A stretch of 62,517 bases of DNA, filler included, from Squatina squatina (taxonomy: Eukaryota): NCBI GenBank assembly GCA_031763465.1. It is 4 parts of 3 records of this genome, joined end to end, with 100 filler letters (N's around TTAATTAATTAA, not from the genome) between each part and the next. Parts side by side here need not be neighbours in the genome. Positions count along the whole stretch, not along the records: positions 1 to 14,915 come from JARFOE010000219.1; 3 more parts are not named here. One strand, given 5' to 3'. Position numbers and translations under genes: made by a program. The notes under the pieces are model-generated. The model did no database searches, had not been told where the DNA came from, and saw nothing but the letters and a program-made list of their open reading frames with translations. Positions 1,883 through 3,792 of this stretch are shown piece after piece (the first letter of the stretch is position 1; every line of letters begins with the position of its first letter).

Positions 1883-3014
1883 CCGCCTCGCTGATTTTTC
1901 CATCCAGCTTCTCATCTTGTACAGCCTGTTTCATGGTGTATGTAAAGGACTCTAGGGTGTTCTTGGCAGCCACCTTTTCACGGTTAGAATCATCCTCGGT
2001 CTTGTAGCGCTCCGAGTCCTGCACCATACGCTCAATATCACTTTTACTCAGCCGTCCCTTGTCATTAGTGATGGTGATCCTGCTTTCTCGGCCTGTGCTC
2101 TTGTCCACAGCTGAAACATTTAGGATGCCATTGGCATCTATGTCAAAGATCACCTCTATTTGTGGCACTCCGCGTGGAGCTGGTGGAATGTTAGAAAGGT
2201 CAAACTTGCCGAGCAGGTTGTTGTCTTTGGTCATGGCCCTTTCACCTTCATATACTTGAACAAGGACACTGGTCTGACGATCTGAATAAGTGGTGAAGAT
2301 CTGAGTCTGCTTGGTGGGGATAGTGGTGTTTCGTTTAATTAGGGGAGTCATGATCCCACCAGCTGTTTCAATACCTAGAGACAGGGGAGTAACATCCAAC
2401 AGCAACAGGTCCTGCACATTTTCAGACTTGTCGCCTGTTAAAATGGCCGCCTGTACAGCCGCACCATAAGCCACAGCTTCATCTGGATTGATGCTCTTGT
2501 TCAGCTCTTTCCCATTGAACAAGTCTTGAAGCATCTTTTGGATTTTAGGGATCCTCGTGGAGCCTCCCACAAGAACAACATCCTGAATCCGTGACTTGTC
2601 GATTTTGGCATCCTGAAGGGCTTTTTCGACAGGCTCCAGTGTGGCTCGGAACAGATCACTGTTCAATTCCTCAAACCGGGCCCTTGTGACGGATGTATAG
2701 AAATCAATACCTTCGTGCAGAGAGTCAATCTCAAGGCTGGCTTGTGTGCTTGAGGACAGGGTCCGCTTGGCACGCTCGCAAGCCGTGCGGAGACGTCTTA
2801 CTGCTCGCTTGCTCTGTGAGATATCATTCTTAAATTTCCGTTTGAATTCCTCAATGAAGTGGTTCACCATGCGACTGTCAAAGTCTTCTCCTCCCAGGTG
2901 AGTGTCTCCAGCAGTAGACTTGACCTCAAAGATGCCATCCTCAATGGTAAGAATAGAAACGTCAAACGTTCCACCTCCCAGGTCAAAGATGAGGACATTG
3001 CGCTCAGCTCCCAC
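1883..3014 (-). CDS. HSPA2: HSP70 family protein, HSPA2-like; large exon covering about residues 189-565 (NBD lobe II, linker, substrate-binding domain), cut by a gap at the 3' end
   Basis: Open frame [22 protein letters not shown]...[14 protein letters not shown]...[13 protein letters not shown]...[11 protein letters not shown], preceded by acceptor ttgtttgtttag. HSP70 identity is certain. The HSPA2 paralog call rests on SVLVQ, KFDL and VAAKN-LES residues plus scaffold position beside ZBTB1. Confidence 0.75.
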
Positions 3015-3703
3015 CTAAACAAACAACCAAATCAACTTAATGGGTACAATCCCCACCAGCGGGGTTTGATCAGAAACAAAACCAAACAAGACAGACATCG
3101 CAAACTAGAAATTCGGACCTACATAAATGTGAGGGCTGTTAACTGAATGAAAGGTTTGAAGGGGCAATATTATCCAATATTACAGAATTATGGAGCCCAA
3201 CAGATGGGTATATTGTAAATATCACTGTTGTAAAGAAAATTAGTTTGAGATGCTGTGTTGTGAAGGACAATGTCTGGACTGGGCTCCATTTTTGACTGAT
3301 TTCTCACTGCGTCCCTTGGAATCACTGGGCAGTTGAATTAATTTAATTCAGTGAACAGTTTTGTGTGGTTCATGGTGGGTGTCGGGATTGTTTAGTGGTT
3401 ATTTTAATCACAGTAGTAGGAGCAGTGTCACATGGTATGTGAGAAAAATTTATTGTACCTGTGCATCAAGTACATTGTAATTGTTGAAAAATATCAGTTA
3501 TAATTATTGCAAATAACAGTAATTGATATATTATTTAAAACACGCACATTTATGAAGGTCCATGCATCAAATACAGTTGTAGTTAGAAGAAAATCAATTA
3601 ACATTTTACAGCCAGTTATACCACTTTATACGTAGCAATCTGCCAAGGACTATACACTTCACACTACTAATTCCCCTGAAAAATCAGGTTTCTTAGTACT
3701 TAC

Positions 3704-3792
3704 AATCATAGGTTTGAAAACATTCAGCTCAAAGTGGCCATTACTTCCTCCAACAGTAACAGCAACATGATTTCCCATGACCTGTGCTGCTA
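3704..3792 (-). CDS. FH: Fumarate hydratase exon (equivalent to human exon 8), 5' part lost in gap
   Basis: [29 protein letters not shown] is the class II fumarase motif. It ends at a phase-0 donor, ATT|gtaagt, at the junction I recall for human FH (KPMM|IKNVL). Confidence 0.92.

What the first reader, a model, noticed from the sequence alone, without database searches (positions are those of the whole stretch)
1883..3792. Fumarate hydratase exon in phase with an HSP70 exon on one ungapped contig: possible FH::HSP70 chimera or interleaved genes
Seen: the FH exon ends ...[10 protein letters not shown]|gtaagt (3704/3703). After 689 nt with no N and no recognisable repeat comes ttgtttgtttag|GTG GGA GCT GAG (3014), opening an intact HSP70 frame of more than 1.1 kb. 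Both are minus strand and phase 0, so splicing would give ...[21 protein letters not shown]. Neither the next FH exon (IKNVL...) nor the preceding HSP70 exon (...AAAIAYGLDKK) is visible in between. Known: FH and HSPA2 are unlinked in human. Inference: (a) a fusion of most of fumarase to an HSP70 lacking NBD lobe I, so a substrate binder unlikely to have ATPase activity; (b) a partial HSP70 copy inside an FH intron acting as an alternative terminal exon; (c) a stray FH exon inside an HSP70 intron; or (d) a chimeric contig.
Basis: partly seen in the sequence, partly recalled or inferred. Interest (0 to 1): 0.85.

Follow-up and report, generated by a model that had tools for sequence, protein, structure and literature searches.

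The report
Misjoined contig mimics fumarase-HSP70 fusion
The fumarase exon and the HSP70 reading frame do sit in phase on one contig of this shark draft genome, but related sharks carry its three pieces at three separate places, so it is likely an assembly error rather than a fusion gene.

Summary
In detail: an FH exon end (3704/3703), 689 nt of non-coding DNA, then an acceptor at 3014 opening 377 HSP70 codons, all minus strand and phase 0.

The linkage does not hold in relatives. FH contigs in 4 of 4 DNA-type runs laid (3 organisms) stop matching at 3522-3527 and continue in other sequence. Contigs of the HSP70-side intron (2 of 4 runs) stop at 3523-3528. The two sides share 7 nt (joint J1), and a third locus straddles that joint (34-38 nt, 2 mismatches).

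The HSP70 part is itself a hybrid. Its intron and VGAERN start match an HSC70-type paralogue. Its body is the shark HSPA2-like gene, which in relatives has no intron here and reads GLDKTGSG (joint J2, within 2893-3006).

In 3 of 3 RNA-like runs the FH exon continues into its own next exon; no contig joins 3704 to 3014.

Verdict: a three-locus technical chimera (about 0.88), most likely a short-k assembly path. The window's own reads were not available, so a private rearrangement is not excluded (about 0.08). Functional fusion about 0.02. Interest is low.

The parts
3704..3792 (-). 3' part of a fumarate hydratase exon (human FH residues 384-412), cut by the contig end
   Evidence: FH contigs in X1, X5, X6, X9 and in X13, X17, X22
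3522..3703 (-). 5' part of the FH intron, with its native GT donor at 3703
   Evidence: contigs covering 3522/3527-3792 in 4 of 4 DNA-type runs, 12-18 other letters in 266-271
3522..3528 (.). Joint J1: 7 nt (ATTGATA) shared by the FH intron and the HSP70-paralogue intron
   Evidence: FH contigs begin at 3522 (3527 in X6); the paralogue contig ends at 3528 in X9 and 3523 in X5; both run on unlike the window
3506..3543 (.). 82% AT stretch across J1 that also matches a third, unrelated locus; candidate bridge in a short-k assembly graph (inferred)
   Evidence: X5 record 13 (3506-3543, 2 mismatches) and X9 record 9 (3510-3543, 2 mismatches) have a like flank behind 3543; expected chance hits about 3e-6
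3015..3528 (-). 3' part of an intron of an HSC70-type paralogue, with its native acceptor
   Evidence: X9 record 8 covers 2893-3528 (57 other letters, 29 gap letters); X5 record 11 covers 3131-3523
3007..3014 (-). Start of the HSC70-type exon (VGA of VGAERN), absent from HSPA2-like orthologues
   Evidence: 0 of 27 shark/ray HSPA2-like proteins read VGAER; orthologous contigs leave the window at 3006
2893..3006 (-). Joint J2 zone: conserved stretch matched by both HSP70 paralogues; the exact switch point is not resolved
   Evidence: X9 record 7 (9 differences in 2870-3006) and record 8 (about 13 of 122 by subtraction, against 20 of 73 just beyond 2893)
1883..3006 (-). Coding body of the shark HSPA2-like gene (HSC70 numbering about 192-565), cut by the contig end
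   Evidence: 93% identity to Pristiophorus HSPA2-like; shark/ray HSPA2-like clade 100/99; X9 record 21, 69 differences in 1124
3893..4634 (-). Neighbouring contig: C2H2 zinc-finger exon (ZBTB1 by recall); context only
   Evidence: Pfam zf-C2H2; the name is recalled and the atlas did not confirm it
5061..7456 (-). Neighbouring contigs: MTHFD1 last coding exon (5061-5150) and an early exon (7372-7456); context only

Best explanation
The contig is likely an assembly chimera of three loci that are separate in related sharks: the FH gene, an intron-bearing HSC70-type paralogue, and the intronless HSPA2-like gene. Shown: where each piece starts and stops matching in relatives, the 7-nt overlap at J1, the third-locus match across J1, and the paralogue switch inside 2893-3006. 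Inferred: at low coverage a de Bruijn assembler with a short word length (about 21) lost the true continuations. It then walked from the FH intron into the HSC70-type intron through about 20-nt words shared with a third AT-rich locus, and from the HSC70-type exon into HSPA2-like through a conserved stretch that both share. The donor and acceptor look right because each is the native splice site of its own gene; that both are phase 0 is coincidence. The scaffolder then likely placed the contig by its longest piece, HSPA2-like, beside the zinc-finger and MTHFD1 contigs. No fusion gene or protein is predicted to exist. Together with the library-chimera rival, a technical origin has about 0.88.
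For: (1) FH-side contigs in 4 of 4 DNA-type runs (X1, X5 organism A; X6 organism B; X9 organism D; 4 studies) match from 3792 down to 3522 or 3527 and then hold 95-403 further letters that do not align. The two loose ends displayed (X5, X9) agree with each other at 27 of 30 letters. (2) HSP70-intron contigs end at 3528 (X9, 207 unlike letters beyond) and 3523 (X5, 171 letters beyond by table 8). (3) No listed piece spans the stretch and no joint links the FH part to the HSP70 part. (4) FH continues into IKNVLNSAQ in 3 of 3 RNA-like runs (X13, X17, X22; read by hand from table 7). (5) HSPA2-like contigs continue at 3006 into AYGLDKTGSG, with the same 30 letters in the genomic contig of X9 and the contig of X13, so there is no intron there. 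27 of 27 listed shark/ray orthologues read xG[S/P]GE[H/R]. (6) The intron-bearing paralogue differs from the window by 23-27% beyond 2893 but by about 9% over 2893-3528; paralogue-level divergence in 2893-3014 fits poorly (Fisher p 0.0004-0.03). (7) A third locus matches across J1; the expected chance count for any 34-mer straddling J1 is 3-5e-5, while such bridge sites are common genome-wide (order 1e6 under a crude model). (8) The window is a fragmented draft: 43 pieces, median 1.2 kb, 36 gaps of 100 N, with one 13-nt overlap left unmerged. (9) Human gene order is MTHFD1, AKAP5, ZBTB25, ZBTB1, HSPA2 (PMC4868023 Table 2), and a zebra-shark gene model joins a BTB domain to HSPA2-like.
Against: The window's own reads were not available (best share of words 0.29), so the joints were not seen as a coverage break. 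All runs laid are from other species, 5-9% diverged. Microhomology of 7 nt is also typical of real rearrangements (own knowledge). The third-locus contigs carry 2 mismatches whose positions are not given, so an exact bridge in this genome is assumed. The Markov models understate real repeats, so the chance figure is too low by an unknown factor. The HSP70-intron side was shown in only 2 of 4 DNA-type runs. Tables were cut (216 difference rows, 13 loose ends and 5 pieces hidden; 33 difference rows hidden), so J2 is bounded but not pinpointed. The relatives' contigs are themselves short-read assemblies. The assembler and its word length are unknown.
Confidence: 0.7

Rival explanations
1. Also technical, but made at the bench: one or two chimeric library molecules (template switching in PCR or ligation of degraded DNA) joined the loci at short homologies, and at low depth they entered the contig.
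For: Both joints lie at shared sequence (7 nt at J1, the conserved paralogue stretch at J2). The draft is fragmented and this contig ends inside exons at both ends.
Against: It does not explain why a third locus matches across J1 (chance 3-5e-5), and it needs two chimeric events within about 630 nt.
Confidence: 0.18
2. A real but private rearrangement in this species or individual: microhomology-mediated template switching copied part of FH and part of an HSC70-type gene onto the HSPA2-like locus, or made a stray duplicate; it would be non-functional.
For: The contig is ungapped, the joints have microhomology, and the relatives tested are other species.
Against: It needs two breakpoints among three loci within about 630 nt, and it leaves the third-locus match unexplained. 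At the native locus it would remove the first 188 codons of a gene that is full length in the sharks and rays listed (640-641 aa in most records).
Confidence: 0.08
3. A functional FH::HSP70 fusion or alternative terminal exon: FH 1-412 spliced to HSP70 189-640, giving an ATPase-dead substrate binder on a truncated fumarase.
For: Canonical donor and acceptor in the same phase, and an open frame of 377 codons.
Against: Each splice site is native to its own gene. FH splices to its own next exon in 3 of 3 RNA-like runs of relatives. 0 of 120 listed long HSP70 forms and 0 of 120 listed FH hits carry the other domain (weak, 120 of 8000 scored in each search). From own knowledge: a cut at FH 412 removes the last bundle helix and domain 3 needed for the tetramer, and HSP70 without residues 1-188 lacks its ATP-binding lobe I.
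Confidence: 0.02
4. Conserved interleaved or nested genes: FH and an HSP70 gene overlap in sharks, one exon lying inside the other's intron.
For: The sequence of the contig alone.
Against: In 3 related organisms the FH intron continues in unrelated sequence at 3522-3527, and the HSP70 intron continues in unrelated sequence at 3523-3528.
Confidence: 0.02

Closest known systems
Shark/ray 'heat shock-related 70 kDa protein 2-like' (e.g. Pristiophorus UniRef100_UPI00398E6AF4; Heptranchias XP_067847185.1); human HSPA2
   Same: Residues 46-377 are 93% identical to Pristiophorus and fall in the shark/ray clade (100/99). The scaffold neighbours follow the human order MTHFD1...ZBTB1-HSPA2.
   Different: Orthologues are about 640 aa, have no intron at this point and read xG[S/P]GE[H/R]. 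The window has an intron and VGAERN taken from another paralogue.
HSPA8/HSC70
   Same: [quoted passage not shown] S1).
   Different: The window's frame runs through the next three HSPA8 intron sites (2459, 2256, 2057), and its body is 84% identical to carp HSC70 against 93% to shark HSPA2-like.
Vertebrate class II fumarate hydratase (FH)
   Same: 28 of 29 residues identical to human FH 384-412; the exon ends where relatives' transcripts splice.
   Different: Only about 180 nt of its own intron follow before the contig switches locus.
Chimeric contigs from short-k de Bruijn assembly of low-coverage reads
   Same: Joints at short shared words and between paralogues. PMC12914762 (passages) notes coincidental k-mer overlaps and that larger k reduces spurious hits and helps to tell paralogues apart.
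   Different: Not confirmed on this sample's own reads; the assembler is unknown.
Natural chimeric genes formed by exon capture (jingwei, TRIMCyp; names recalled, no call)
   Same: In-phase donor and acceptor from two genes.
   Different: No independent genomic or transcript support, and the joint lies mid-intron at a 7-nt overlap with a second joint between paralogues.

Membership tests
Shark HSPA2-like gene | Sequence falls in the shark/ray HSPA2-like clade | tested here: met
   Residues 46-377, clade support 100/99, 17 rows, no shark HSC70 row available
Shark HSPA2-like gene | Coding region continuous across GLDK-xG[S/P]GE[H/R]N | tested here: not met
   The window has an intron and VGAERN; relatives are continuous
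Shark HSPA2-like gene | Lies next to ZBTB1 and MTHFD1 | tested here: inconclusive
   Scaffold order fits, but that order is likely reference-derived and the ZBTB1 name is recalled
HSPA8/HSC70 | Phase-0 intron at codon 188/189 before VGAERN | tested here: met
HSPA8/HSC70 | Further introns at A374, V441 and G508 | tested here: not met
   Open frame through 2459, 2256 and 2057
HSPA8/HSC70 | Body closer to HSC70 than to HSPA2-like | tested here: not met
   84% against 93%
Class II fumarate hydratase gene | Exon matches FH | tested here: met
   E 3.5e-14, residues 384-412
Class II fumarate hydratase gene | Own intron and next exon follow in cis | tested here: not met
   The contig leaves the FH intron at 3522; the next exon is seen only in relatives
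Natural fusion or exon-capture gene | Linkage seen in independent genomic data | tested here: not met
   0 of 4 DNA-type runs of relatives bridge J1 with long anchors
Natural fusion or exon-capture gene | Chimeric transcript exists | tested here: inconclusive
   0 of 3 RNA-like runs join 3704 to 3014, but they are from other species and are contigs
Natural fusion or exon-capture gene | Own-sample reads cross the joints | not testable with these tools
Chimeric contig (misassembly) | Independent assemblies break at the same point on both sides | tested here: met
   4 of 4 runs on the FH side, 2 of 4 on the HSP70-intron side
Chimeric contig (misassembly) | Short shared sequence at the joints | tested here: met
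   7-nt overlap plus third-locus match at J1; paralogue-shared stretch at J2
Chimeric contig (misassembly) | Coverage drop or discordant pairs in own reads | not testable with these tools
   Own reads not available

The most novel reading that the evidence does not exclude
The three-part joint is real and private to this shark lineage: template switching built a new gene from most of fumarase, an HSC70-type intron and exon start, and the body of HSPA2-like. It is spliced into an FH::HSP70 protein, an ATPase-dead holdase tethered to a truncated metabolic enzyme and possibly carried into mitochondria by the FH presequence.
Probability: 0.03. Interest if true: 0.75.

Novelty: not a real feature. 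Interest (0 to 1): 0.06.

Why it matters
As biology it most likely does not matter: the three genes are ordinary and separate in related sharks. As a lesson for the scan it does. An ungapped contig with a good donor, a good acceptor and matching phase can still be a misjoin in this kind of fragmented draft, and laying relatives' contigs locates the joint to a few bases. Gene fusions called from this assembly need that check first. If the joint proved real and expressed, it would be an unreported vertebrate enzyme-chaperone chimera; the one search requiring all four terms fumarate hydratase, HSP70, gene fusion and chimeric found 0 papers.

Tried and rejected
(1) No whole genome is held, so paralogues and FH exons could not be searched in this assembly.
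(2): no RNA holder listed. This is no evidence on expression. 7 of the 24 listed runs were laid (X9 twice); the small shares of the other 17 were not used.
(3) Lack of cover of the HSP70 body in X1, X5, X6 and X22, and of the HSP70-side intron in X1 and X6, was not used: a filter drops human-like records.
(4) The inverted repeat 3115-3142/3534-3561 as a transposon end was rejected: 19 of 200 shuffles do as well, and X9 has insertions in one arm.
(5) My Fisher test using '1 difference in 98' for the paralogue is invalid, because hides 33 rows. The 'worst case' line there has the same flaw. Both were replaced by the subtraction bound.
(6) Finding shark FH proteins to compare chromosome sizes with HSPA2-like failed: none was named among the 120 rows listed.
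(7) The atlas did not name the zinc-finger contig, and it does not align to the N-terminal part of P0126 (best E 0.064).
(8) Paper searches on shark HSP70 gene structure gave nothing relevant in their listings.
(9) Earlier findings: none for this genome, none by words, and 8 unrelated Hsp70 or fumarase notes by sequence.
(10) No fold or complex prediction was run, since the fusion protein has no support.
(11) A second short off-target locus at 3515-3553 (6 mismatches in 39; X1, X5) and one at 3465-3499 (X6) were not counted as bridges.

Full report
Verdict. The described sequence is present, but the contig is most likely a technical chimera of three loci that are separate in related sharks. 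I put a technical origin at about 0.88, a real private rearrangement at 0.08, a functional fusion at 0.02 and conserved nesting at 0.02.

Setting. The window has 43 pieces (median 1163 nt), 36 gaps of 100 N and three spacers of 44 N + 12 nt + 44 N. One pair of contigs overlaps by 13 nt across a gap without being merged. This is the layout of a fragmented short-read draft ordered into scaffolds (inference). No whole genome is held. The contig in question is 1883-3792 and ends inside coding sequence at both ends. Its neighbours are a C2H2 zinc-finger exon at 3893-4634 (ZBTB1 by recall, not confirmed) and two MTHFD1 exons. In human the order is MTHFD1, AKAP5, ZBTB25, ZBTB1, HSPA2 (PMC4868023, two passages including Table 2).

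Check of the observation. Donor at 3704/3703, 689 nt, acceptor at 3015/3014. The upstream piece is FH 384-412, with 28 of 29 residues identical to human. The downstream frame has 377 codons without a stop. Its first residue aligns to HSC70 V189, and human HSPA8 has a phase-0 intron exactly there (PMC2266713: passages; supplement part 1 of 4, Fig. S1). The interval matches nothing else in the window. A 28-nt inverted repeat is at chance level: 19 of 200 shuffles reach it.

What the HSP70 is. The closest proteins by identity are shark and ray HSPA2-like, best 93% to Pristiophorus. A tree of residues 46-377 (17 rows; no shark HSC70 row was available) puts the window in that clade at 100/99, sister to Pristiophorus at 100/96. 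But 27 of 27 listed orthologues (27 of 29 cluster members, isoforms included) read xG[S/P]GE[H/R] after YGLDK and none reads VGAER. The window's frame also runs through the three later HSPA8 intron sites at 2459, 2256 and 2057. So the first residues and the intron are HSC70-type and the body is HSPA2-type.

Relatives' DNA: joint J1. One search listed 24 runs; none held half of the words (best 0.29), so the source run was not available. I laid 7 of the 24. In one search, four DNA-type runs (organisms A, A, B, D; four studies) each gave an FH contig matching from 3792 down to 3522 (X1, X5, X9) or 3527 (X6), with 12-18 other letters. Each holds further letters that do not align: 393, 395, 403 and 95 by table 8. 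The two loose ends displayed (X5, X9) agree at 27 of 30 letters, so they are the shared FH intron. From the other side, X9 has a 3200-nt contig matching up to 3528 with 207 unlike letters beyond, and X5 has a 567-nt contig matching 3131-3523 with 171 letters beyond. X1 and X6 showed no contig on that side; this was not used. The two sides overlap by 7 nt, 3522-3528. No listed piece spans the stretch and no joint links the two parts.

A third locus at J1. X5 (3506-3543) and X9 (3510-3543) each have a contig of another locus that matches across the joint with 2 mismatches and has a like flank behind 3543. In one search, where all pieces are shown, it is the only short off-target piece of X9 in the non-coding stretch. 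Markov models give about 3e-6 expected hits for that 34-mer, and 3-5e-5 summed over all starts that straddle J1; real genomes are more repetitive, so these figures are too low by an unknown factor. The third locus shares 19-23 nt with the HSP70-side intron and 22 nt with the FH intron. That is what a graph with words of about 21 letters needs to pass from one to the other, and such bridge sites are common genome-wide (order 1e6 under a crude model). This step is inference: the positions of the mismatches are not given and the assembler is unknown. PMC12914762 (passages) states the general point that larger k reduces spurious hits and helps to separate paralogues.

Joint J2. In X9 the HSPA2-like contig matches 1883-3006 at a steady 6% difference (60 of 987, then 9 of 137). 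It then continues into AYGLDKTGSG (read by hand from table 7), with the same 30 letters in X13 and nearly the same in X17, so that gene has no intron here. The intron-bearing contig of X9 differs from the window by 81 of 353 at 2200-2552 and 20 of 73 at 2820-2892, but by 57 of 636 at 2893-3528, and reads GEDFDNRMV beyond 2893. By subtraction about 13 of 122 coding letters differ in 2893-3014; paralogue-level divergence there fits poorly (p 0.0004-0.03). The window therefore switches paralogue somewhere in 2893-3006. The exact point is not resolved because 33 rows are hidden, and my first test of it was invalid for that reason.

Transcripts. In 3 of 3 RNA-like runs (X13 kind unknown; X17 and X22 guessed RNA; organisms D, F, A) the FH exon continues into IKNVLNSAQ, its own next exon, and table 5 is empty. 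These are other species and are contigs, so they cannot exclude a transcript private to this animal. Among long HSP70 forms 0 of 120 listed resemble FH, and among FH hits 0 of 120 listed resemble HSP70; each list is 120 of 8000 scored, so this is weak.

How it works. Shown: three source loci, two joints, shared sequence at both. Inferred: at low depth the true continuations were missing, the assembler followed shared short words at J1 and the conserved paralogue stretch at J2, and the scaffolder placed the contig by its HSPA2-like body. The splice signals look right because each is native to its own gene, and phase 0 is the commonest intron phase (own knowledge). A chimeric library molecule would explain the joints but not the third locus. 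A real rearrangement needs two breakpoints among three loci within about 630 nt. From own knowledge, the predicted fusion would lack the last bundle helix and domain 3 of fumarase and lobe I of HSP70, so it would likely have neither activity.

What stands against this reading. There are no own reads; the relatives are 5-9% diverged; microhomology also marks real rearrangements; one side of J1 is seen in only 2 of 4 runs; output tables were cut; and the relatives' contigs are short-read assemblies too.

Literature and earlier notes. One search requiring fumarate hydratase, HSP70, gene fusion and chimeric together found 0 papers. Five searches on shark HSP70 structure gave nothing relevant in their listings; one search supplied the assembly paper. 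Parts 2-4 of the supplement of PMC2266713 (exon table) were not read. The library lacks most subscription journals. No earlier finding of the scan bears on this.

Score. Novelty: not a real feature. Interest 0.06. The most novel reading left open is a lineage-private, expressed three-part fusion, with probability 0.03 and interest 0.75 if true.

Noticed in passing
Run X9, record 25 (record 8), against window 2200-3528: A shark HSP70 paralogue that keeps the HSPA8 intron before VGAERN but is collinear with the window from 3014 to 2200, so it has no intron at the next two HSPA8 sites (2459, 2256). It may be a gene that lost its 3' introns, or itself a hybrid contig. Not identified.
   Followed up: partly
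window 2893-3006: In organism D the two HSP70 paralogues both match this stretch closely (about 7% and roughly 10% different from the window), while the intron-bearing one differs by 23-27% beyond it. This could be an old gene-conversion tract or plain conservation; hidden table rows prevent a count.
   Followed up: partly
protein P0126 (Stegostoma tigrinum XP_048393018.1): A 1005-aa gene model joins a BTB domain to full HSPA2-like: a read-through or merged annotation with the upstream ZBTB gene. Many long HSC70 models likewise carry Ig domains.
   Followed up: no
window 14916-15015, 34233-34332, 49790-49889: Three spacers of 44 N + 12 nt + 44 N: the window is likely four separate records set end to end.
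   Followed up: no
window 53694-53819: Two contigs overlap by 13 nt across a 100-N gap inside a C2H2 zinc-finger exon (MTF1 by recall) and were not merged, so gap sizes are nominal.
   Followed up: partly
window 5061-7456: The last and an early MTHFD1 exon lie 2.2 kb apart with the exons between them missing: scaffolds hold only scattered contigs in gene order.
   Followed up: partly
window 8064-10453: 2.4-kb pyrimidine-rich degenerate simple repeat (GC skew about -0.88) that gives long spurious open frames.
   Followed up: no
window 34410-34736 and 48310-48654: A gamma-glutamyltranspeptidase exon and a VWA-domain exon (matrilin by recall) on another record.
   Followed up: no
window 3127-3133: X9 has about 26 more letters here than the window, and X5 breaks off here with similar letters: a small deletion in this lineage or individual.
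   Followed up: no
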